Source: a virus
Lineage: Duplodnaviria; Heunggongvirae; Uroviricota; Caudoviricetes
Virus record (IMG/VR): IMGVR_UViG_2534682338_000003
Span: 1-21,334 of that record
Reading direction: 5' to 3' (one strand)
DNA length: 21,334 nucleotides
Shown piece after piece: positions 1 through 14,006 of this stretch (position 1 is the first letter of the stretch; the number at the start of each line of letters is the position of its first letter). The notes beneath the pieces are model-generated. The model did no database searches and was not told the DNA's origin. It was given only the letters and a program-made list of their open reading frames with translations. The position numbers and the translations under genes are program-made.

Positions 1-438
1 GGCTGGCTGTATCTGGCAGTGGTCATTGACCTGTGGTCACGTGCCGTTATTGGCTGGTCAATGTCGCCACGCATGACGGCGCAACTGGCCTGCGATGCCC
101 TGCAGATGGCGCTGTGGCGGCGTAAGAGGCCCCGGAACGTTATCGTTCACACGGACCGTGGAGGCCAGTACTGTTCAGCAGATTATCAGGCGCAACTGAA
201 GCGGCATAATCTGCGTGGAAGTATGAGCGCAAAAGGTTGCTGCTACGATAATGCCTGCGTGGAAAGCTTCTTTCATTCGCTGAAAGTGGAATGTATCCAT
301 GGAGAACACTTTATCAGCCGGGAAATAATGCGGGCAACGGTGTTTAATTATATCGAATGTGATTACAATCGGTGGCGGCGGCACAGTTGGTGTGGCGGCC
401 TCAGTCCGGAACAATTTGAAAACAAGAACCTCGCTTAG
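1..438 (+). CDS. insF: IS3 transposase OrfB (DDE integrase core), 5'-truncated by the window edge
   Basis: Translation from base 1 gives [23 protein letters not shown]...[14 protein letters not shown]...[17 protein letters not shown]...[11 protein letters not shown], matching my recollection of the IS3 OrfB C-terminus; the ORF track shows only 19-438 because it starts at the first in-frame GTG. Confidence 0.8.
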
Positions 439-468
439 GCCTGTGTCCATATTACGTGGGTAGGATCA
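1..468 (+). mobile_element. IS3 insertion sequence, 3' portion; the window begins inside the element and its right terminal inverted repeat ends near 468
   Basis: Transposase reading frame is open from base 1; it is followed by GGCCTGTGTCCATATTACGTGGGTAGGATCA at 438-468, which I recognise as the IS3 right end. Confidence 0.8.
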
Positions 469-582
469 GTTCACCTGTACAGCGTTGTGTTAATCATATT
501 TCTGAACCGGATACAGAAATTCCGCCTGGTTTCAGAGGATAAGTGTTGATTTCAGGTCATGAGGTAATTTTAAGGGGGACTT

Positions 583-1038
583 GTGGCAAAAGTTTTTACA
601 CAAGAAGAGCGGGAAAAAATTAAAGGGCAGGTGGTGGAACTCGTGCGCCAGAGCGGTCGTGAGACGTTACGGCAACTGGAAGCTAAAACAGGTGCGACTA
701 GATATCTGATGAGCGTTCTTGCCAGAGAGCTGGTAGCCAGTGGCGATGTATACAACTCCGGCTACGGGTTATTCCCGTCTGAACAGGCGCGTAAGGACTG
801 GCAAAACGCCCGCAAAAAACTCTCGAGGGCAAAGGTGAAGAAACCTGCTGTGGTTGATCCGGACCTTATCTGGTCATTACCTGACGGAGAAATACGTCGC
901 TACGACAGTCGTCTAAACATAATCTGTCGCGAGTGCCGGAAGAGCGAAGTGATGCAACGCATACTGGCGTTTTATCAGGGAAATGTTCAGCATTTTGAAG
1001 TAACGATATTAAAGTGCATTAGTTCAAATGTGAAATGA
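583..1038 (+). CDS. Hypothetical 151-aa protein with a possible N-terminal helix-turn-helix and a C-terminal CxxC
   Basis: ORF-track ORF; GTG start 3 nt after AAGGGGGA (572-579); in-frame TAA at 571-573 bounds it upstream; segment TLRQLEAKTGATRYLMSVLARELVASG looks HTH-like; I do not recognise the family. Confidence 0.5.
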   Translation: MAKVFTQEEREKIKGQVVELVRQSGRETLRQLEAKTGATRYLMSVLARELVASGDVYNSGYGLFPSEQARKDWQNARKKLSRAKVKKPAVVDPDLIWSLPDGEIRRYDSRLNIICRECRKSEVMQRILAFYQGNVQHFEVTILKCISSNVK

Positions 1039-1284
1039 CATTTCTGTTGTATAGGATTAGATTAAAACTGGCATTGTTGCAGCTTTGTACTAGGAGTGAC
1101 CGTTTACACAGACCACGTCCCAGTAGACGCTCTTGACATAATCGTTGAGATGTCCAACTTTCGGAGCTCACCTCATGCCCCAGATGTTTTTTGTTCTCAG
1201 GAGAAAACTATATCGCAGAACTACGAACTAAACTTATGTCATAACTCATGCAAAAAACTCTTCGGCTAAACATTAAAAAAATCT

Positions 1285-1290
1285 TATAAT
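1285..1290 (+). promoter_or_regulatory. Candidate -10 hexamer (TATAAT) upstream of the AIPR gene; no convincing -35
   Basis: Consensus TATAAT at 1285-1290, about 39 nt before the ATG at 1329. Confidence 0.25.
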
Positions 1291-1328
1291 GCGAATCATA
1301 TTTTGTTACATGTTCAGGAGCGCAAAGG

Positions 1329-3104
1329 ATGTCCCAGTACGACAAAGCCACGCAAACAGCAGGTTTAGTACGCATAACTAATCAATTAGAGTCTATATAC
1401 GGAACTTTTATTGATATGAAAGATATTAATTCCGTAGGAGAGCATAGGAAAGAAACTCTAATTACACGCTGTGTAGCTGCGCATGCAATCAGCTTGTATG
1501 GTGATGAACCAGACCCTGAGTTAGCTGCTAATGCTGTCTGCGATGGAAAAGATGATGGCGGGATAGATGCAGTTTATGTTAATAAAAATTCGAGAAAGAT
1601 AGTAATAGTTCAGTCAAAATATATTAAAAATGGCGACGGTTCTATAACCACAAGAGAATTCGGAAGATTCAAAGACGCATGCGCAAAAGTAATAGCCAGC
1701 GACTTTACAACATTTAACGAAAGGTTTTTAAGAAACAAAGACTCCATAATTGAAGCAATCTCAGGATTTACATATAAATGTATATGTGTATTTATATATA
1801 CAGGGGTTCATGAGCCAAGCGAAGAAGTAAAATCAGACATAGAGTTTTGGGAAAAGGTTCAGAATCGGTCTCTATTATTTAAAGATATAGAGAATAGAGA
1901 TGAGTATTCAGTGCTATTCGAGCCGGCAGGTATACAAGTGATAATGGATGGTCTTTCTAATGATCGATCAAAATCTATAAATGTTAGCAATGTTCACCTT
2001 GAAAGTTATGGAGAGATAGCAGAACCTTATAAAGCAATATACGGAACAATATCCGCAAGGATCCTATACGACTGGTGGGAAAAGTACAAGTACTCTCTGT
2101 TCGAGAAAAATATAAGAAGTGTCCTCGGTAATTCATCCATAAACTCTGGGATAAAGAAAACATTAAGTGAAAAGCCGGAGAATTTTTGGTACTATAACAA
2201 TGGGATAACTGCTGTATATAGTGATGTAGAAGAAAGCATGATCAACTTAAGTACAAGCAGGAAGTACGGGCTATTTAGTTTTAAAAGTCTGAGTATAATA
2301 AATGGAGCTCAAACTGTAAGCACTATTGGTGAAGTGTTCAACTCTTTACCCGAAGAAAAAAAAGATCTAATCAAGGTGAGCATTAGATTTATCAGTGCAG
2401 CAAAAGAAGATTTTTTAACCTCTGTCACTAAATTCAACAATACACAAAACAGGGTTACTGGAAGAGATTTCTCATCACAGAGGCCCGAGCAACAAAGAAT
2501 ACAAAGAGAAATAAACTTTATTGGCGGATATAGCTACAAACTACTCAGGCAAGAAGACTCCAGCCAGACAGGTGGTAATACCATTGATATTGATGATGCT
2601 TTAAACGCATTAGTGTGTGCCTCTAAAGATGAAACATTGATATCTTCCTTAAAACTAAATAGAGGACGTTTTTTTGAAAGCTGGGGAGGTCTTTATGAAA
2701 AAGTATTCCCAGCTGAAAATGGTCCTACCGGTTTAGATATAATAAATAAAGTAAATGCTTATAGATTAGCAAATGATATATTGCAAGAAAGTATAGTTAA
2801 ACTACTATCAGTAGATATGGAAAATCAGAAGCAGATTCATCAAATAATGATTCATGGAAATTATGTTTTAATATCCATACTCATGAATAAAATAGAAGTT
2901 TCCTCTGTGGAGAATCACATCTTCTCTTATAGCCGAAACGTTTCACTGGAGGAATGTATAGAGCTGGCTTCTGATACTTATAATCACATACAGGAAGTCT
3001 TCCCCAATAGTTATATAGCAAGATTCTTCCAGAACAGAGAAAAAGTATTAAATATTATTAATCATCTACTAGGTAAAGAGCAGATCATCGAATTGCAAGA
3101 GTAA
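1329..3104 (+). CDS. AIPR-family abortive-infection-type protein (591 aa) with an N-terminal PD-(D/E)xK-like nuclease motif
   Basis: ORF-track ORF; ATG after AGGAGCGCAAAGG; contains IINGAQTVSTIG (the NGxQT motif I associate with the AIPR domain) and upstream GIDAVYV...IVIVQSKY (D...QxK); markedly AT-rich relative to its neighbours. Confidence 0.75.
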   Translation: MSQYDKATQTAGLVRITNQLESIYGTFIDMKDINSVGEHRKETLITRCVAAHAISLYGDEPDPELAANAVCDGKDDGGIDAVYVNKNSRKIVIVQSKYIKNGDGSITTREFGRFKDACAKVIASDFTTFNERFLRNKDSIIEAISGFTYKCICVFIYTGVHEPSEEVKSDIEFWEKVQNRSLLFKDIENRDEYSVLFEPAGIQVIMDGLSNDRSKSINVSNVHLESYGEIAEPYKAIYGTISARILYDWWEKYKYSLFEKNIRSVLGNSSINSGIKKTLSEKPENFWYYNNGITAVYSDVEESMINLSTSRKYGLFSFKSLSIINGAQTVSTIGEVFNSLPEEKKDLIKVSIRFISAAKEDFLTSVTKFNNTQNRVTGRDFSSQRPEQQRIQREINFIGGYSYKLLRQEDSSQTGGNTIDIDDALNALVCASKDETLISSLKLNRGRFFESWGGLYEKVFPAENGPTGLDIINKVNAYRLANDILQESIVKLLSVDMENQKQIHQIMIHGNYVLISILMNKIEVSSVENHIFSYSRNVSLEECIELASDTYNHIQEVFPNSYIARFFQNREKVLNIINHLLGKEQIIELQE

Positions 3105-3108
3105 AAGT

Positions 3109-3132
3109 AAGAGCCACCTGCGGGTGGCTCTT
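3109..3132 (+). terminator. Rho-independent terminator after the AIPR gene
   Basis: AAGAGCCACC-TGCG-GGTGGCTCTT, a perfect 10-bp stem with 4-nt loop beginning 5 nt after the stop codon, followed by a T-rich stretch. Confidence 0.6.
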
Positions 3133-3481
3133 ACTTATTTGACGCTACCATATGCTCGCATTTGCCATAACATATGTTGCGTACGCTCAGAAATACGTGG
3201 AGGGCGTTTCTGGTCTAAAATCGTCAAGACACTCCATCATATATTCAGGAAATTGCTAATAATCGTGTAGGTGAATACTGCTTAAAATTCATATATATGA
3301 AATTGAACCTGTTGGCTTGCGTCGGACTTTGCGTATTAAAAGAAGTGCTGGTGGTGACTAGTGGTTGAGCTCCATTTCCACAGAAAAATCAGAGAAACCA
3401 TACCCAATAGTTGTATTGAATCACGGACGAGACAGCCTCATATTTATCAGGACTGGTGTACGTCCAATACAGGAGGTTGTG

Positions 3482-3571
3482 GTGCTGGTTCTCAAATGTG
3501 CGCTGGCTATTACGGCTGTAATGGCGATTTATTGTCTTGCTATTGTTCTTATGGATCGCCTTTCTGACTGA
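3482..3571 (+). CDS. Candidate 29-aa hydrophobic peptide (possible small membrane protein or type I toxin-like peptide)
   Basis: AGGAGG at 3471-3476, 5 nt before GTG 3482; translation (M)LVLKCALAITAVMAIYCLAIVLMDRLSD is a single predicted transmembrane helix; no homolog recognised. Confidence 0.25.
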   Translation: MLVLKCALAITAVMAIYCLAIVLMDRLSD

Positions 3572-3858
3572 TTTCATATTGGCGAGGTAAAGGTAGTTAA
3601 GTAGAATGGCTGCGGGTGCTTGAGGCTATCTGCCTCGGGCATGAACACCAAAGGCAGATAGAGAAAAGCCCCAGTTAACATTACGCGTCCTGCAAGACGC
3701 TTAACATTAATCTGAGGCCAATTTCATGCTAGACACATGTAGGTTAGCCTCTTACGTGCCGAAAGGCAAGGAGAAGCAGGCTATTGTTAACACCAAGCTG
3801 TAATGTCCCCTTTGAACCATTCTAAAATGTCCCCAGACAATTCTCTGGGGGATTTTTC

Positions 3859-5199
3859 ATGATCAAAGAGACTGTTACGATGAGTCATAAGGAACTCCAC
3901 CGACTTCAGATTATTCAGGAGTCAATTAATCGACATATTACTCAGGAACAAGCTGCGGCACGCATTGGCATTTCTATTCGGCAGGTTAAACGTCTGGTGC
4001 AACGGTATAGAAATGAAGGGCCTTCTGGTCTGGTTTCCCACCGACGTGGAAAGCGTCCTAATAATTCCTTTTCTACTGAATTCAGAGCAACAGTAATTTC
4101 ACTCCTCAAAGGCCGTTACGCTGATTTTGGACCTACGTTTGCGTGCGAAAAATTGCGCGAGATACACGGTTTATCTTTATCCGTTGAAACTCTCAGAAAG
4201 TGGATGATAGAAGAGGGGTTATGGCGTGAACGCCGTCGTAAAATTGCCCGTATATATCAACGCCGCATGCGACGACCATCTTACGGTGAACTGATCCAGA
4301 TTGATGGCTCACCTCATGACTGGTTTGAAAATCGAGGCCCCAGATGTACACTGATCGTTTTCATTGATGATGCCACCAGTGCGTTGATGGCGTTGCGTTT
4401 TGTGCCTGCTGAAACAACCCGGGCTTACATGGAAACCCTCCGGGGTTACCTTAATGATCATGGCGTACCGCTCGCTCTCTACTCTGATAGACACAGTATA
4501 TTCAGGGTAAATAACCCAGAGCGGGAAGGTGAGCTGACCCAGTTCACTCGTGCGATAAAGACACTGGGCATCGAGCCAATCCATGCCAACAGCCCGCAGG
4601 CAAAAGGGCGGGTAGAGCGCGCCAATCAGACACTACAGGACAGGCTGGTCAAAGAAATGCGGCTTCAGAATATCAGTGATATTGAAACAGCAAATGCATG
4701 GTTGCCGACCTTTATTGAAGCCTATAACAACCGGTTCGCTACGTCGCCTCGTACTACTGATAATGCTCATCTTGATGTGCACCATTCTGAAGAGGAACTG
4801 GGTTATATCTTCAGCCTACAGGCGAAGCGCGTTCTGTCTAAAAATCTCACTTTCCAGTACAAAAGCAGTGCGTTTCAGGTACGCAGTGAGAGCCGGGGAT
4901 ATCGACTTAGGCATTCGGTTGTTACTGTATGCGAGAACTTTGACGGTGAAATTAACGTTCTGTATGACGGGAAAGTGCTGGGCTGGGAAAAGTATGTTGA
5001 TGGCCCGGAGCCTATACCACTGGATGATGAAAAGAGTGTCCATGAACGAGTGGATAATGCCCGTATTGATTTACGCTCAAAATACTATGTTAAACCTAAA
5101 GCTGACCATCCCTGGCTTACGCGCCGAACGCAAAGTCATCAGCAAGTTAAGCCCCCGAAGTTACCTAAAAAGAAGCCTGATCCCGATAAAAAAGATTGA
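3859..5199 (+). CDS. DDE transposase, ISNCY/IS481-like (N-terminal HTH plus integrase catalytic core), 446 aa
   Basis: ORF-track ORF; N-terminus HKELHRLQIIQ...ISIRQVKRLVQRY is HTH-like, followed by an rve-type core (LIQIDGS...FIDDATS...SDRHSIF...GRVERANQTLQ); element ends not resolved. Confidence 0.8.
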   Translation: MIKETVTMSHKELHRLQIIQESINRHITQEQAAARIGISIRQVKRLVQRYRNEGPSGLVSHRRGKRPNNSFSTEFRATVISLLKGRYADFGPTFACEKLREIHGLSLSVETLRKWMIEEGLWRERRRKIARIYQRRMRRPSYGELIQIDGSPHDWFENRGPRCTLIVFIDDATSALMALRFVPAETTRAYMETLRGYLNDHGVPLALYSDRHSIFRVNNPEREGELTQFTRAIKTLGIEPIHANSPQAKGRVERANQTLQDRLVKEMRLQNISDIETANAWLPTFIEAYNNRFATSPRTTDNAHLDVHHSEEELGYIFSLQAKRVLSKNLTFQYKSSAFQVRSESRGYRLRHSVVTVCENFDGEINVLYDGKVLGWEKYVDGPEPIPLDDEKSVHERVDNARIDLRSKYYVKPKADHPWLTRRTQSHQQVKPPKLPKKKPDPDKKD

Positions 5200-5635
5200 A
5201 ACCAAGATCGATTCGGTTGAGTGCATATCCATTCATAGGGTAGATTCTTAAGTCGCGTTTCTGGTGTTCATTTTCGGGTGGTTTGTTACTTGTTTTACTG
5301 GGGATATGCCAGAAACGCGCTGAGTCAGTCTGGGCGGTGCGCGTAATGAGGCGTTATGGTAAATAGCCTATGCTAATGTCCGCTAAGAGCAAGAAGCGGA
5401 AGTTGGCAGTTTTGTGGACTGTCCCCACAAAAGTGACTACAGAAATAGTTGCAATTCATAATTGATCATGGGTTGTCAGTTAAACTCGTGGCGATTTAAA
5501 TAGACTAATTGGGAGTGCGTCCATTACTTATATCTTGTAATGTTAACTATCAGAAATGATACAAAGATAATATGTCTTTAAAGAAAAGGCTGATGGCGAA
5601 AAGTGGCCCGATGAGGGCCACAATACGGCTGTCAC

Positions 5636-5968
5636 TTAGACGTAAATATCAATGGTGCCAGCGGTATTTGTATCGTCTTTTTTCTCTTCTTTTTTATCAG
5701 GCTGAACTGTCGCGTCTTCATTCTTTTTCTCTGCCTGCTGCCTTAACAACTGCTCCAGTTGAGCCCTGAGGCTTTCAATTTGCTTCTGTACCAATGCAGC
5801 CATTTCTTTTTTCTGCTGTGTCGTCATCCCCTCTTCCGATGAGATTTTCCCAAGCTTTTCAGTCAGCACCTGAATTTGTCTTGTGATTTTGGCTATTTCT
5901 GATGTTCCTTCCGGGGCGGAGTTGTTTGAAATAACGGTTGAGGTATTTCCCTGAATTGTGACAGACAT
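5636..5968 (-). CDS. flxA: FlxA-like protein (FliA-regulated prophage protein), 110 aa
   Basis: ORF-track ORF beginning MSVTIQGNTSTVISNNSAPEG, matching my recollection of Qin-prophage FlxA; sigma-28-type promoter immediately upstream. Confidence 0.8.
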   Translation of the reverse strand: MSVTIQGNTSTVISNNSAPEGTSEIAKITRQIQVLTEKLGKISSEEGMTTQQKKEMAALVQKQIESLRAQLEQLLRQQAEKKNEDATVQPDKKEEKKDDTNTAGTIDIYV

Positions 5969-5991
5969 AGATTTCTCCTTTTAAAAAAGCA

Positions 5992-6018
5992 CTATCGGCA
6001 TGCACAAAAAAATCTTTA
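5992..6018 (-). promoter_or_regulatory. Sigma-28 (FliA) type promoter for flxA
   Basis: Minus strand reads TAAAGATT-N11-GCCGATAG against consensus TAAAGTTT-N11-GCCGATAA; the -10 element ends about 24 nt upstream of the flxA ATG. Confidence 0.6.
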
Positions 6019-6170
6019 ATCGTATTTCTTGTGTCATTAATTGTTTGATGTTCAGATTGTTTTCCTAGCGGGCTGGCGCGCCTCAGAAAGTAAAGCTTGT
6101 TGACAGGGGTAAACGTTCGGCAATAATTTTCTGCCGCATGCGGGTGTTGCATAAAACGTGCTACGTTCCT

Positions 6171-6476
6171 TTATCGACAGGTCAGGTCACCGCTCACCCG
6201 CCGACGAGAAAGCAACACTGACATGCTAAAGCAAAAAATAGATGAATAAGTTGAGTTGTGCATATGTAGCCTGACCGTCACAAAGTATATGGTGTCTGTA
6301 CCAGTAAGATGATGGCCGGACTCTTTAAAAATGAGCTGACCTGCACAATACAGGATGGACTTAGCAATGGCTGCTCCTGGCACAAAGCGGACAGTGATCA
6401 CCGTTCTTACGACTACTTTCTGACTTCCTTCGTGACTTGCCCTAAGCATGTTGTAGTGCGATACTTGTAATGACAT
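6171..6476 (-). CDS. ydfV: YdfV-like hypothetical ORF (101 aa), doubtful as a coding gene
   Basis: ORF-track ORF in the position and with the length I recall for Qin ydfV between flxA and relB; low-complexity and it runs across the relBE operator. Confidence 0.3.
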   Translation of the reverse strand: MSLQVSHYNMLRASHEGSQKVVVRTVITVRFVPGAAIAKSILYCAGQLIFKESGHHLTGTDTIYFVTVRLHMHNSTYSSIFCFSMSVLLSRRRVSGDLTCR

Positions 6477-6489
6477 TTGTAATTACAAG
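6464..6489 (+). promoter_or_regulatory. relBE operator/promoter inverted repeat
   Basis: CTTGTAATGACATTTGTAATTACAAG immediately upstream of the relB SD (AGAGGTG) and ATG at 6501. Confidence 0.6.
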
Positions 6490-6500
6490 AGGTGTAAGAC

Positions 6501-6740
6501 ATGGGTAGCATTAACCTGCGTATTGACGATGAACTTAAAGCGCGTTCTTACGCCGCGCTTGAAAAAATGGGTGTAACTCCTTCTGAAGCGCTTCGTCTCA
6601 TGCTCGAGTATATCGCTGACAATGAACGCTTGCCGTTCAAACAGACACTCCTGAGTGATGAAGATGCTGAACTTGTGGAGATAGTGAAAGAACGGCTTCG
6701 TAATCCTAAGCCAGTACGTGTGACGCTGGATGAACTCTGA
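6501..6740 (+). CDS. relB: RelB antitoxin (79 aa)
   Basis: ORF-track ORF MGSINLRIDDELKARSYA...KPVRVTLDEL; sits directly upstream of relE. Confidence 0.95.
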   Translation: MGSINLRIDDELKARSYAALEKMGVTPSEALRLMLEYIADNERLPFKQTLLSDEDAELVEIVKERLRNPKPVRVTLDEL

Positions 6741-7027
6741 TGGCGTATTTTCTGGATTTTGACGAGCGGGCACTAAAGGAATGGCGAAAGCTGGGCTCGA
6801 CGGTACGTGAACAGTTGAAAAAGAAGCTGGTTGAAGTACTTGAGTCACCCCGGATTGAAGCAAACAAGCTCCGTGGTATGCCTGATTGTTACAAGATTAA
6901 GCTCCGGTCTTCAGGCTATCGCCTTGTATACCAGGTTATAGACGAGAAAGTTGTCGTTTTCGTGATTTCTGTTGGGAAAAGAGAACGCTCGGAAGTATAT
7001 AGCGAGGCGGTCAAACGCATTCTCTGA
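6740..7027 (+). CDS. relE: RelE mRNA interferase toxin (95 aa)
   Basis: ORF-track ORF MAYFLDFDERALKEWRKLG...; its ATG overlaps the relB stop (TGATG). Confidence 0.95.
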   Translation: MAYFLDFDERALKEWRKLGSTVREQLKKKLVEVLESPRIEANKLRGMPDCYKIKLRSSGYRLVYQVIDEKVVVFVISVGKRERSEVYSEAVKRIL

Positions 7028-7098
7028 ACCAAAGCATGACATCTCTGTTTCGCACCGAAGGTGACACTTCTGCTTTGCGTTGACAGGAGAAGCAGGCT

Positions 7099-7254
7099 AT
7101 GAAGCAGCAAAAGGCGATGTTAATCGCCCTGATCGTCATCTGTTTAACCGTCATAGTGACGGCACTGGTAACGAGGAAAGACCTCTGCGAGGTACGAATC
7201 CGAACCGGCCAGACGGAGGTCGCTGTCTTCACAGCTTACGAACCTGAGGAGTAA
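7099..7254 (+). CDS. hokD: Hok-family membrane toxin HokD/RelF (51 aa)
   Basis: My own translation MKQQKAMLIALIVICLTVIVTALVTRKDLCEVRIRTGQTEVAVFTAYEPEE; below the ORF-track length cut-off; third gene of the relBEF arrangement. Confidence 0.9.
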   Translation: MKQQKAMLIALIVICLTVIVTALVTRKDLCEVRIRTGQTEVAVFTAYEPEE

Positions 7255-10517: not shown

Positions 10518-10817
10518 AAAAATTCCTTAATACTGATAACTTGGCGCACTATACACACGTTCCTGAAGAAAGCTATAGTTTTTTGATGGGGTTGAAGATG
10601 GCTGGATGTCTAAAATAAACATTGCTTCATATGTTCAACTATGCGTTAATGATTGCGTCGGTTTGAAGAACAGACGATATACGAAGTAGTTTACTAAAGC
10701 AGTTCTCATTTCAGGTGTTATTCACTTATTCCTTCTTTGAGTCTCTCCAATTAAGTACGAAGTCGTTTCTGTTATGCAAACCATTTATGCCGAAAGGCTC
10801 AAGTTAAGGAATGTAGA

Positions 10818-11033
10818 ATGTCAAATAAAATGACTGGTTTAGTAAAATGGTTTAACGCTGATAAAGGTTTCGGCTTTATTTCTCCTGTTGATGGTAGTAA
10901 AGATGTGTTTGTGCATTTTTCTGCGATTCAGAATGATAATTATCGAACCTTATTTGAAGGTCAAAAGGTTACCTTCTCTATAGAGAGTGGTGCTAAAGGT
11001 CCTGCAGCAGCAAATGTCATCATTACTGATTAA
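10818..11033 (+). CDS. cspB: Cold-shock protein CspB (71 aa)
   Basis: ORF-track [37 protein letters not shown]...; long 5' leader typical of cold-shock genes. Confidence 0.9.
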
Positions 11034-11314
11034 AATTCATCGCTCGTCTGTATACGATAACGAAGAAGGCTGATGCCTGAGTAGAGATACGGACAGAGTA
11101 GTGAATATTGGATCTCTTTAATAAAAAGTAAGGAGGTCCAATACATGAAACAATGGCTAGCATATTTGGCAAAATCTTAATCAGGAAAAGTATGCTAACC
11201 ATTGTGGTGAAGTGCAGGTTTGCTGCATGAATAGTTTTACAGCAGAAGCTAACTGCTGGCATGGCAAAACAAAGTGCGTAAGTGGATGACTCCCACAAAA
11301 AGCACCACAATCTC

Positions 11315-13342: not shown

Positions 13343-13705
13343 GGTAATATTAAATCGGAACATTTACATCGCGGAATGTAAAATTTAAATAAAAAGGACT
13401 CTTCCATGAGCCAAAATTCCTGAAATCTTAAGGGTAAGATAAAAGGTCTTAATCAGAATGACACGTTATTATTAATAAATAAAGCTATTCTTTCATTGCT
13501 GTGTTTTTCTTTACAAAAGTAATCCTTGCTATGGGTGGTTAATCATGCGTTAATGGTGTTCTGGTTTGTTACAAATTTATCTGAAGCAGTCATTGTTATA
13601 ATTTTATTATTTGTACCTCTTGAGATTTCCTTGTTGGTTTTTCTCTCTGATATTTTTTTTCGGACCATTCTGCCCAAGGGCTAATTTCTTCAAAAGGTAA
13701 TAATT

Positions 13706-13918
13706 ATGTCTAACAAAATGACTGGTTTAGTGAAATGGTTTAACCCTGAAAAAGGTTTTGGTTTCATCACGCCGAAAGATGGCAGCAAAGATGTGTTTGT
13801 CCATTTCTCAGCAATTCAGAGCAACGATTTCAAAACATTAACTGAGAATCAGGAAGTTGAATTTGGTATTGAGAACGGACCTAAAGGTCCTGCCGCTGTT
13901 CATGTAGTGGCGCTTTGA
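13706..13918 (+). CDS. cspI: Cold-shock protein CspI (70 aa)
   Basis: ORF-track [37 protein letters not shown]...; long AT-rich 5' leader. Confidence 0.9.
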
Positions 13919-14006
13919 GGTAGACAATATTACAAACCATATTCACTTTAGATGCCCGTGTTGTCATGGTTCCCAGTATAGAACATCATCTTTTGATGTT
14001 TCTGAC

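What the first reader, a model, noticed from the sequence alone, without database searches (positions are those of the whole stretch)
1100..3140. AT-rich AIPR-family gene with an N-terminal PD-(D/E)xK-like motif: candidate single-gene anti-phage (abortive infection) system carried inside a prophage
The 591-aa ORF contains NGAQT, which I associate with the AIPR (abortive infection phage resistance) domain, preceded by a D...QxK arrangement (GIDAVYV...IVIVQSKY) typical of restriction-endonuclease-like nucleases. Its base composition is strikingly AT-rich compared with the flanking prophage and IS genes, and it has its own candidate -10 element and a clean terminator. That pattern suggests a horizontally acquired defence cargo gene. 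AIPR proteins are poorly characterised, so the mechanism and any target are open.
Basis: partly seen in the sequence, partly recalled or inferred. Interest (0 to 1): 0.7.

Follow-up and report, generated by a model that had tools for sequence, protein, structure and literature searches.

The report
AbiU-like AIPR defence gene in prophage

Summary
ORF 1329..3104 (+, 591 aa) carries NGAQT, GIDAVYV and IVIVQSKY. It has 35% GC against about 48-51% in its flanks and is followed by a strong hairpin. It matches Pfam AIPR (E 4.5e-33), PADLOC AbiU (E 7e-24) and a full-length phage family, PHROG_1841 (E 7e-103).

- an N-terminal PD-(D/E)xK nuclease of the Mrr/MspJI/FokI type, with invariant D80, Q95 and K97;
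- a central ParB/sulfiredoxin-like core holding NNGIT and NGAQT;
- a helical C-terminal domain.

The window is a defective Qin-like E. coli prophage. The gene lies in a 2.3-kb insert (about 991-3310) between the DUF977 gene and a hok/sok leader. Other strains carry other cargo in this slot, including candidate defence genes. Homologues stand alone on 5.6-kb plasmids, in a small island and in P4 satellites, which fits a single-gene unit.

None of this is new. RefSeq already calls it "AIPR family protein", and AbiU-1 is already listed as a single-gene PD-(D/E)xK defence. A 35%-identical E. coli AIPR gene was tested in 2022 and is not among the systems reported to protect. The mechanism of the family is still unknown.

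The parts
991..3310 (+). Strain-specific cargo insert carrying the AIPR gene (35.9% GC)
   Evidence: Window 469-990 and 3594 onward align to strain S51, but 991-3593 do not. Segment 3311-3593 is shared by 1755 E. coli genomes, whereas the full 3140-3593 stretch occurs in only 38. GC.
1285..1290 (+). Candidate -10 hexamer TATAAT, 38 nt upstream of the ATG (weak evidence)
   Evidence: Exact hexamer, but at chance frequency in this window. No paired -35 was reported by the scan.
1316..1320 (+). Shine-Dalgarno-like AGGAG, 8 nt before the ATG
   Evidence: Read directly from the sequence.
1329..3104 (+). AIPR/AbiU-like protein gene, 591 aa (RefSeq WP_000084874.1, 'AIPR family protein')
   Evidence: Found at 99% identity or more in 39 of 5426 complete E. 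coli genomes.
1533..1970 (+). PD-(D/E)xK (Mrr-type D...QxK) nuclease domain, about aa 69-214. Catalytic candidates are D80 (nt 1566-1568), Q95 (1611-1613) and K97 (1617-1619).
2100..2567 (+). AIPR core, aa 258-413, with invariant NNGIT (aa 290-294) and NGAQT (aa 325-329, nt 2301-2315); ParB/sulfiredoxin-like fold
2586..3101 (+). Helical C-terminal domain, aa 420-591, function unknown
   Evidence: Mostly confident in the model. No specific fold match. Not covered by the second half of the Pfam AIPR profile.
3105..3136 (+). Terminator-like hairpin: 14-bp perfect stem, 4-nt loop, short T-tract
583..1038 (+). DUF977 prophage gene, left border of the cargo slot
   Evidence: RefSeq annotation of the identical locus. 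The same gene borders the slot in other strains.
3614..3785 (+). hok/sok leader, right border of the cargo slot
   Evidence: Rfam RF01794, 112.5 bits. Directly joined to hokD in strains Combat13F7, GPEC1042, 700481 and SCU-123.

Best explanation
The gene encodes a stand-alone AbiU-like (AIPR family) anti-phage protein. It is carried as accessory cargo in the slot between the replication module (DUF977 gene) and the hok/sok locus of a defective Qin-like E. coli prophage.

The protein has three parts: an N-terminal Mrr-type PD-QxK endonuclease domain, a central ParB/sulfiredoxin-like AIPR core, and a helical C-terminal domain.

Most likely mechanism, which is inferred and not shown: the nuclease is the effector. 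The strongly conserved ParB-like core, possibly with the C-terminal domain, acts as the DNA- or nucleotide-binding sensor or gate that keeps the nuclease off host DNA until infection. Cutting or nicking of phage DNA early in infection would then delay phage transcription, as reported for lactococcal AbiU.

Shown here: family membership, domain folds, invariant catalytic-type residues, acquired origin, the variable slot and the solitary occurrence of homologues. Inferred: the defence role of this particular gene, its substrate, its trigger, and whether the infected cell survives.
For: Family:
- Pfam AIPR E 4.5e-33, PADLOC AbiU E 6.9e-24, PHROG_1841 full-length E 6.9e-103.
- RefSeq annotates it as 'AIPR family protein'.

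Folds:
- AF2 model with pLDDT 85.
- With residues 1-239 removed the top matches are BrxU, PadC and sulfiredoxin, with further DUF262, ParB and KorB hits.

Residues:
- D80, Q95, K97, NNGIT, NGAQT and NNxQN...RD are invariant across 64 homologues down to 30% identity.
- The hhalign optimum against E. coli Mrr is the GGIDG...VQAK catalytic motif.
- Weak Mrr_cat_2 hits occur in 8 of 64 members.

Context:
- The insert has 35% GC.
- The same slot holds PADLOC PDC-S33 (a RelA/SpoT protein), a SMEK/Aga-like protein plus a methyltransferase, or unknown genes in other strains.
- Homologues are solitary in a Cronobacter islet next to an integrase remnant, beside the Pectobacterium phn operon, on 5.6-kb mobilizable plasmids and in the P4 satellite hotspot.

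Literature:
- AbiUi alone confers resistance and delays phage transcription, and its AF2 model resembles FokI (PMC13064643).
- A Vibrio AbiU is among the defences said to be counteracted by experimentally characterised phage anti-defence proteins; the one against AbiU is named Surt (bioRxiv 10.1101/2024.06.14.598830).
- AIPR was described as a ParB-superfamily domain fused to other nucleases (PMC3632139).
Against: - No experiment exists on this protein.
- A 35%-identical single-gene AIPR from an E. coli P4 satellite (pFR77) was cloned with its native promoter and challenged with eight coliphages. It is not among the seven systems reported as protective.
- Lactococcal AbiU gives only a 10- to 100-fold drop in plating efficiency.
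- Similarity to a lactococcal AbiU-type protein is limited to 36% over 106 aa of the core, and the AbiU profile is covered only over positions 44-366 of 537.
- The promoter is not demonstrated.
Confidence: 0.55

Rival explanations
1. It is a Type IV-like (modification-dependent) restriction endonuclease that directly cleaves modified phage DNA without killing the host. It would be functionally akin to Mrr, MspJI or GmrSD rather than to an abortive-infection protein.
For: The best structural matches of the nuclease domain include the modification-dependent enzymes AspBHI and MspJI. The catalytic motif aligns with Mrr. The central domain resembles the DUF262 domain of the GmrSD-family enzyme BrxU and of SspE. 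The gene is a solitary nuclease with no methyltransferase partner.
Confidence: 0.2
2. It is not a defence gene. It would be a selfish maintenance or competition factor of mobile elements, for example a ParB-like nuclease that helps plasmids and prophages persist or exclude rival elements.
For: A 59%-identical homologue is the main non-backbone gene of 5.6-kb mobilizable plasmids that also carry a RelE/ParE toxin-antitoxin pair. The gene sits next to hok/sok and relBE addiction modules here. The tested E. coli AIPR is not among the systems reported to protect against phages.
Against: Family members gave phage resistance in Lactococcus, and a Vibrio AbiU is reported as a defence that a phage anti-defence protein counteracts. 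Alternative occupants of the same prophage slot match defence-candidate profiles. No partner antitoxin-like gene is conserved next to homologues.
Confidence: 0.12
3. It is an RNA-targeting HEPN-type toxin, as suggested for AIPR proteins in a 2012 hypothesis paper.
For: [quoted passage not shown]
Confidence: 0.03

Closest known systems
Lactococcus AbiU (AbiUi/AbiU1), prototype of the DefenseFinder/PADLOC 'AbiU' single-gene system
   Same: Almost the same length (589 vs 591 aa). Both have a QSK motif in the N-terminal part and the NNGIT...NG(A/L)QT core. This protein matches the PADLOC AbiU profile at E 7e-24. Published AF2 work also finds a FokI-like nuclease domain in AbiUi, and a single gene is sufficient.
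   Different: Direct similarity is only 36% over 106 aa. This protein scores 83 bits on the AbiU profile, against 590 bits for a lactococcal plasmid AbiU-type protein. There is no AbiU2 (HEPN) neighbour. The host is a Gram-negative prophage rather than a lactococcal plasmid.
E. coli P4-satellite hotspot AIPR (plasmid pFR77, strain E1167; Rousset et al. 2022, PMC9122126)
   Same: Same subfamily: 35% identity over 398 aa with conserved GIDA...IVQSK, PENFWYYNNGIT and NGAQTVS motifs. It is also a single gene in a mobile-element cargo hotspot of E. coli.
   Different: It sits in a different element (P4 psu-int hotspot, not the lambdoid DUF977-hok/sok slot) and is 65% divergent. It is not listed among the seven protective systems in that study.
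GmrSD / BrxU / SspE (DUF262 ParB-like NTPase domain plus DUF1524 HNH nuclease)
   Different: The nuclease here is a PD-QxK type placed N-terminally, not a C-terminal His-Me finger. There is no sequence similarity to BrxU. DGQQR is replaced by NGAQT, which lacks the Arg.
Mrr / MspJI / AspBHI / FokI cleavage domains
   Same: The PD-(D/E)xK fold with a D...QxK catalytic arrangement.
   Different: Those enzymes pair the nuclease with DNA-recognition domains (winged helix, SRA-like, FokI recognition domain). Here it is paired with an AIPR core.
MzaE of the five-gene MZA candidate system
   Same: It shares the AIPR core (E 7e-15 and 8e-16).
   Different: The NCBIfam equivalog score is 57.6 against a cut-off of 1050, and there are no mzaABCD neighbours.

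Membership tests
Pfam AIPR (PF10592) | Profile match above the curated gathering score | tested here: met
   115.7 bits against a cut-off of 25, E 4.5e-33, aa 258-413. All 64 aligned homologues match.
Pfam AIPR (PF10592) | Match over the whole profile (308 positions) | tested here: not met
   Only profile positions 1-158 are matched. The C-terminal domain of this subfamily is not covered.
AbiU (PADLOC PDLC02357; lactococcal AbiUi) | Significant match to the AbiU profile | tested here: met
   E 6.9e-24, 82.9 bits, profile positions 44-366 of 537. A lactococcal plasmid AbiU-type protein scores 590 bits over the full length, so this protein is a distant relative.
AbiU (PADLOC PDLC02357; lactococcal AbiUi) | Functions as a single gene, with no obligatory partner | tested here: met
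   By context only. Homologues at 59-85% identity have unrelated neighbours, and one is the main cargo of a 5.6-kb plasmid. The P4 hotspot lists AIPR as a one-gene system.
AbiU (PADLOC PDLC02357; lactococcal AbiUi) | Confers phage resistance and delays phage transcription | not testable with these tools
   This needs plaque and transcription assays. It is reported for lactococcal AbiU.
PD-(D/E)xK nuclease superfamily (Mrr-like D...QxK) | Restriction-endonuclease-like core fold | tested here: met
PD-(D/E)xK nuclease superfamily (Mrr-like D...QxK) | Conserved acidic residue at the start of one core strand and (D/E/Q)xK in the next | tested here: met
   D80, Q95 and K97 are invariant in 64 sequences. 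D80 precedes strand 81-85 and Q95/K97 end strand 90-97. hhalign aligns them with the GGIDG...VQAK motif of Mrr, E 0.024.
PD-(D/E)xK nuclease superfamily (Mrr-like D...QxK) | Significant sequence-profile match to a curated nuclease family | tested here: inconclusive
   Mrr_cat_2 appears only below threshold, in 8 of 64 members (best E 0.021). There are no PDB sequence hits.
PD-(D/E)xK nuclease superfamily (Mrr-like D...QxK) | Metal-dependent nuclease activity | not testable with these tools
   This needs biochemistry.
ParB/sulfiredoxin superfamily (DUF262-like) | ParB/Srx fold | tested here: met
ParB/sulfiredoxin superfamily (DUF262-like) | GxxR / DGQQR phosphate-binding motif with its Arg | tested here: not met
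   By my own reading of the model, the topologically equivalent motif (strand 322-325, then the start of helix 327-339) is the invariant NGAQT, with Thr where the Arg would be.
ParB/sulfiredoxin superfamily (DUF262-like) | Detectable sequence similarity to a DUF262 protein | tested here: not met
   hhalign of the family profile against BrxU gives E 0.57, in the wrong region. No DUF262 or ParBc Pfam hits were found.
GmrSD/BrxU Type IV restriction enzymes | C-terminal DUF1524 His-Me finger nuclease | tested here: not met
MzaE (MZA system) | NCBIfam equivalog score and mzaABCD neighbours | tested here: not met
   57.6 bits against a cut-off of 1050. The neighbours are prophage and IS genes.
HEPN | HEPN fold and Rx4-6H motif | tested here: not met

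The most novel reading that the evidence does not exclude
AIPR/AbiU proteins may be a mechanistically distinct class of single-polypeptide immune nucleases. In this reading a degenerate ParB/sulfiredoxin-type module (NNGIT/NGAQT, lacking the canonical Arg) senses a nucleotide, a DNA structure or a phage protein and licenses an Mrr-type PD-QxK nuclease. That would be the GmrSD logic rebuilt with a different nuclease and a different domain order. This enterobacterial subfamily, which sits in a lambdoid prophage hotspot, would be a convenient E. coli model to work it out.
Probability: 0.3. Interest if true: 0.5.

Novelty: new member of a known kind. Interest (0 to 1): 0.22.

Why it matters
It matters little as a discovery. 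The gene is already annotated and its family is already in defence-system catalogues. Its value is practical. No AIPR/AbiU protein has a solved structure, and I found no described biochemical mechanism for the family in the papers I read. This E. coli version, with clear catalytic candidates (D80, Q95, K97; N325, Q328), is a tractable starting point. The DUF977-hok/sok slot of Qin/lambdoid prophages also looks like a cargo hotspot that could be mined for further defence genes.

Tried and rejected
- Foldseek of the whole model against the PDB found nothing below E 0.1. Sequence and profile searches of the PDB gave no real hit.
- Megablast of the gene against the phage collection found no match. 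Only distant protein-level relatives exist there: Aggregatibacter phage S1249 at 31% and Klebsiella phages at 26%.
- hhalign against BrxU gave no similarity.
- The weak EF-hand and Kiwellin Pfam hits at aa 86-153 were judged spurious. They are below threshold, and the loop after QSK does not fit the EF-hand consensus.
- I considered the small hydrophobic ORF at 3482-3571 as a possible partner. I rejected this because its segment (3311-3593) is prophage backbone shared by 1755 genomes, most of them without the AIPR gene.
- MzaE and HEPN readings were rejected.
- The original AbiU paper (Dai et al. 2001, PMC93294) is not held, so its content is cited through PMC13064643 and PMC13099982.
- I did not run the large representative-protein search or the metagenome scans, because the answer did not depend on them.
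Full report
**1. The observation**

The window holds one long ORF in the stated interval, 1329..3104 on the + strand (ATG start, 591 aa). No antisense ORF of 60 aa or more lies within it.

The gene has 35.2% GC (30% at third codon positions). This compares with 50.7% to its left and 47.6% for the rest of the window. Two csp-gene regions of the prophage are similarly AT-rich.

A perfect 14-bp hairpin starts one base after the stop codon. It folds at -27.8 kcal/mol, z = -5.8. Its T-tract on the + strand is short.

The "-10 element" is a perfect TATAAT at 1285-1290. Such hexamers occur at chance frequency in this window, and no -35/-10 pair was reported by the scan upstream of the gene.

**2. Where the gene is**

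The window is 100% identical to the chromosome of E. coli VG12A2, apart from an extra IS1414 there. It is a Qin-like lambdoid prophage at the rspB/ydfJ locus. The prophage is defective:
- IS3 interrupts the replication gene, and window 1-469 is that IS.
- In VG12A2 the integrase is truncated next to an IS1 copy.
- In Combat13F7 the structural genes are largely gone.

RefSeq annotates the ORF as "AIPR family protein", WP_000084874.1. The 2-kb segment occurs at 99% identity or more in 39 of 5426 complete E. coli genomes, always on the chromosome.

Comparison with other strains delimits a strain-specific insert of about 2.3 kb (991-3310). On the left it replaces the last codons of the DUF977 gene. 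On the right it meets a backbone segment (3311-3593) present in 1755 genomes, followed by a hok/sok leader at 3614-3785.

In other strains the same slot holds different cargo:
- a RelA/SpoT-domain protein that matches the PADLOC candidate PDC-S33 at E 5e-119;
- a SMEK-domain protein (matching an Aga REase-PNTD profile) with a methyltransferase and a hypothetical gene;
- pairs of unknown genes;
- a decayed methyltransferase.

This is the pattern of a cargo or defence hotspot.

**3. What the protein is**

Profile searches are unambiguous at family level:
- Pfam AIPR, E 4.5e-33.
- PADLOC AbiU, E 6.9e-24, and MzaE, E 7e-15.
- NCBIfam MzaE far below its cut-off.
- PHROG_1841, "Abi alpha-like abortive infection mechanism", E 6.9e-103 over the full length.

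More than 1100 homologues were retrieved. Those at 55-87% identity listed with names come from Cronobacter, Ewingella, Pectobacterium and Serratia. A large cluster at about 35% identity includes other Enterobacterales, Pseudomonas, Shewanella, Aeromonas and cyanobacteria.

In an alignment of 64 homologues the invariant residues fall in two blocks:
- D72, D76, D80, Q95 and K97.
- N290-N291-G292-x-T294, N325-G-A-Q-T329, R353, N370-N371-x-Q373-N374, and R379-D380.

**4. Domain folds**

An AlphaFold2 model built on that alignment is confident per domain (mean pLDDT 85) but not in the relative placement of domains (pTM 0.47).

The nuclease fold therefore lies in residues 1-239. In the model D80 sits at the start of strand 81-85 and Q95-x-K97 end strand 90-97, which is the canonical geometry. 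The AIPR core is a ParB/sulfiredoxin-type fold, as Makarova and colleagues stated from sequence analysis (PMC3632139).

At sequence level:
- The single best hhalign match between the family profile and E. coli Mrr pairs DDGGIDAV...VIVQSK with GDGGIDGV...VYVQAK, Mrr's catalytic motif. This is statistically weak (E 0.024) but positionally exact.
- Eight of 64 members give sub-threshold Mrr_cat_2 hits.
- The ParB-like assignment has no sequence support against BrxU.
- NGAQT lacks the Arg of the GxxR/DGQQR motif, so nucleotide binding cannot be assumed.
- The C-terminal helical domain has no informative match.
- No solved structure of any family member exists.

**5. Is it a single-gene unit?**

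The 85%-identical Cronobacter gene lies in a small islet next to an integrase remnant. The 59%-identical Pectobacterium gene lies beside the phn operon, with HTH and CcdA fragments nearby. A 59%-identical gene is the main cargo of 5.6-kb mobilizable plasmids of Klebsiella and Salmonella.

Rousset et al. list AIPR as a one-gene system in the P4 satellite hotspot. No neighbour is conserved. The small hydrophobic ORF downstream (3482-3571) belongs to the common backbone, not to the insert.

**6. What is known about function**

- Lactococcal AbiU: AbiUi alone gives resistance, phage transcription is delayed, and protection is modest (plating efficiency 0.1-0.01). Its AF2 model resembles FokI (PMC13064643).
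- AbiU-1 is listed among single-gene PD-(D/E)xK defence systems (bioRxiv 10.1101/2024.10.26.620412; PMC13099982).
- A Vibrio AbiU is among the defence systems reported to be counteracted by experimentally characterised phage anti-defence proteins; the one against AbiU is named Surt.
- The protein here is a distant relative of the lactococcal type: 36% identity over 106 aa of the core, and 83 against 590 bits on the AbiU profile.
- Its nearest tested relative is the P4-hotspot AIPR of E. coli E1167 (35% identity over 398 aa). That gene was cloned with its native promoter and challenged with eight coliphages. It is not among the seven systems reported as protective.

**7. Mechanism**

The best-supported reading is a stand-alone nuclease effector (PD-QxK) controlled by the conserved ParB-like core and the C-terminal domain. 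It would act on phage DNA early enough to delay transcription. Whether the cell survives is open.

The rivals are:
- a modification-dependent Type IV-like restriction enzyme, suggested by the Mrr/MspJI-type nuclease and the GmrSD-like core, but with no modified-base reader domain;
- a mobile-element maintenance function;
- an HEPN RNase, which the fold results reject.

**8. Verdict**

The added value here is fourfold: the domain assignment, including the ParB-like nature of the AIPR core; the exact borders of the insert; the recognition of the DUF977-hok/sok slot as a variable cargo site; and the link to a tested but apparently silent E. coli relative.

The gene is a new, uncharacterised member of a known and catalogued family. 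It is not a new kind of system. Interest is low to moderate.

**9. Noticed in passing**

The 3.3-kb block at 3785-7085 looks like a single transposed unit inserted at the hokD start codon. It contains the ISEsa1-family transposase, ydfW, flxA, ydfV and relBE. The evidence:
- It has 5'-TGT...ACA-3' ends.
- The best inverted-repeat partner of its left end, among 2100 candidate positions, lies exactly at its right border (19 of 26 matches).
- It is flanked by a 15-16-bp exact direct repeat.
- "Empty" sites, in which the hok/sok leader continues straight into hokD, exist in several strains.

These points rest. Details are in the notebook.

Noticed in passing
window 3769-7100: The 3301-bp block 3785-7085 (ISEsa1-family IS1202-type transposase, ydfW, flxA, ydfV, relB, relE) looks like one transposed unit that split hokD from its hok/sok leader. 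Its ends are TGT...ACA. Its terminal inverted repeat (19 of 26) is the best match among 2100 candidate right ends. It is flanked by the exact direct repeat (A)GGAGAAGCAGGCTAT (15-16 bp), a duplication length typical of one IS1202-family subgroup. Empty sites (leader fused to hokD) exist in Combat13F7, GPEC1042, 700481 and SCU-123. The full unit is in 760 of 5426 E. coli genomes, and K-12 derivatives keep only its right two-thirds. This suggests that the classical relBE-hokD arrangement arrived as the passenger load of an IS. I did not find this described in the held literature.
   Followed up: partly
window 583-3785, compared with loci L003, L008-L012: The interval between the DUF977 gene and the hok/sok leader of Qin/lambdoid prophages is a variable cargo slot. 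Different strains carry AIPR, a RelA/SpoT protein (PADLOC PDC-S33), a SMEK/Aga-like protein plus a methyltransferase, unknown gene pairs, or decayed genes.
   Followed up: partly
window 3471-3571: An unannotated small hydrophobic ORF (…LVLKCALAITAVMAIYCLAIVLMDRLSD) is preceded by AGGAGG. It lies in a backbone segment (3311-3593) conserved in 1755 E. coli genomes just upstream of hok/sok. It may be a small membrane peptide or a type I toxin-like gene.
   Followed up: no
window 1-469: The window starts inside an IS3 copy that interrupts the prophage replication gene. Together with the IS elements further right, this marks the prophage as defective.
   Followed up: yes
window 10657-11049 and 13560-13945: Two cspA-type thermoregulator 5' leaders (Rfam RF01766, 159 and 113 bits) precede the prophage cold-shock genes cspB and cspI.
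   Followed up: no
locus L014 (NZ_CP138750.1, 5627 bp): Small mobilizable Klebsiella and Salmonella plasmids carry a 59%-identical AIPR gene as their main cargo, together with a NadS family protein gene next to a RelE/ParE-family toxin gene.
   Followed up: no
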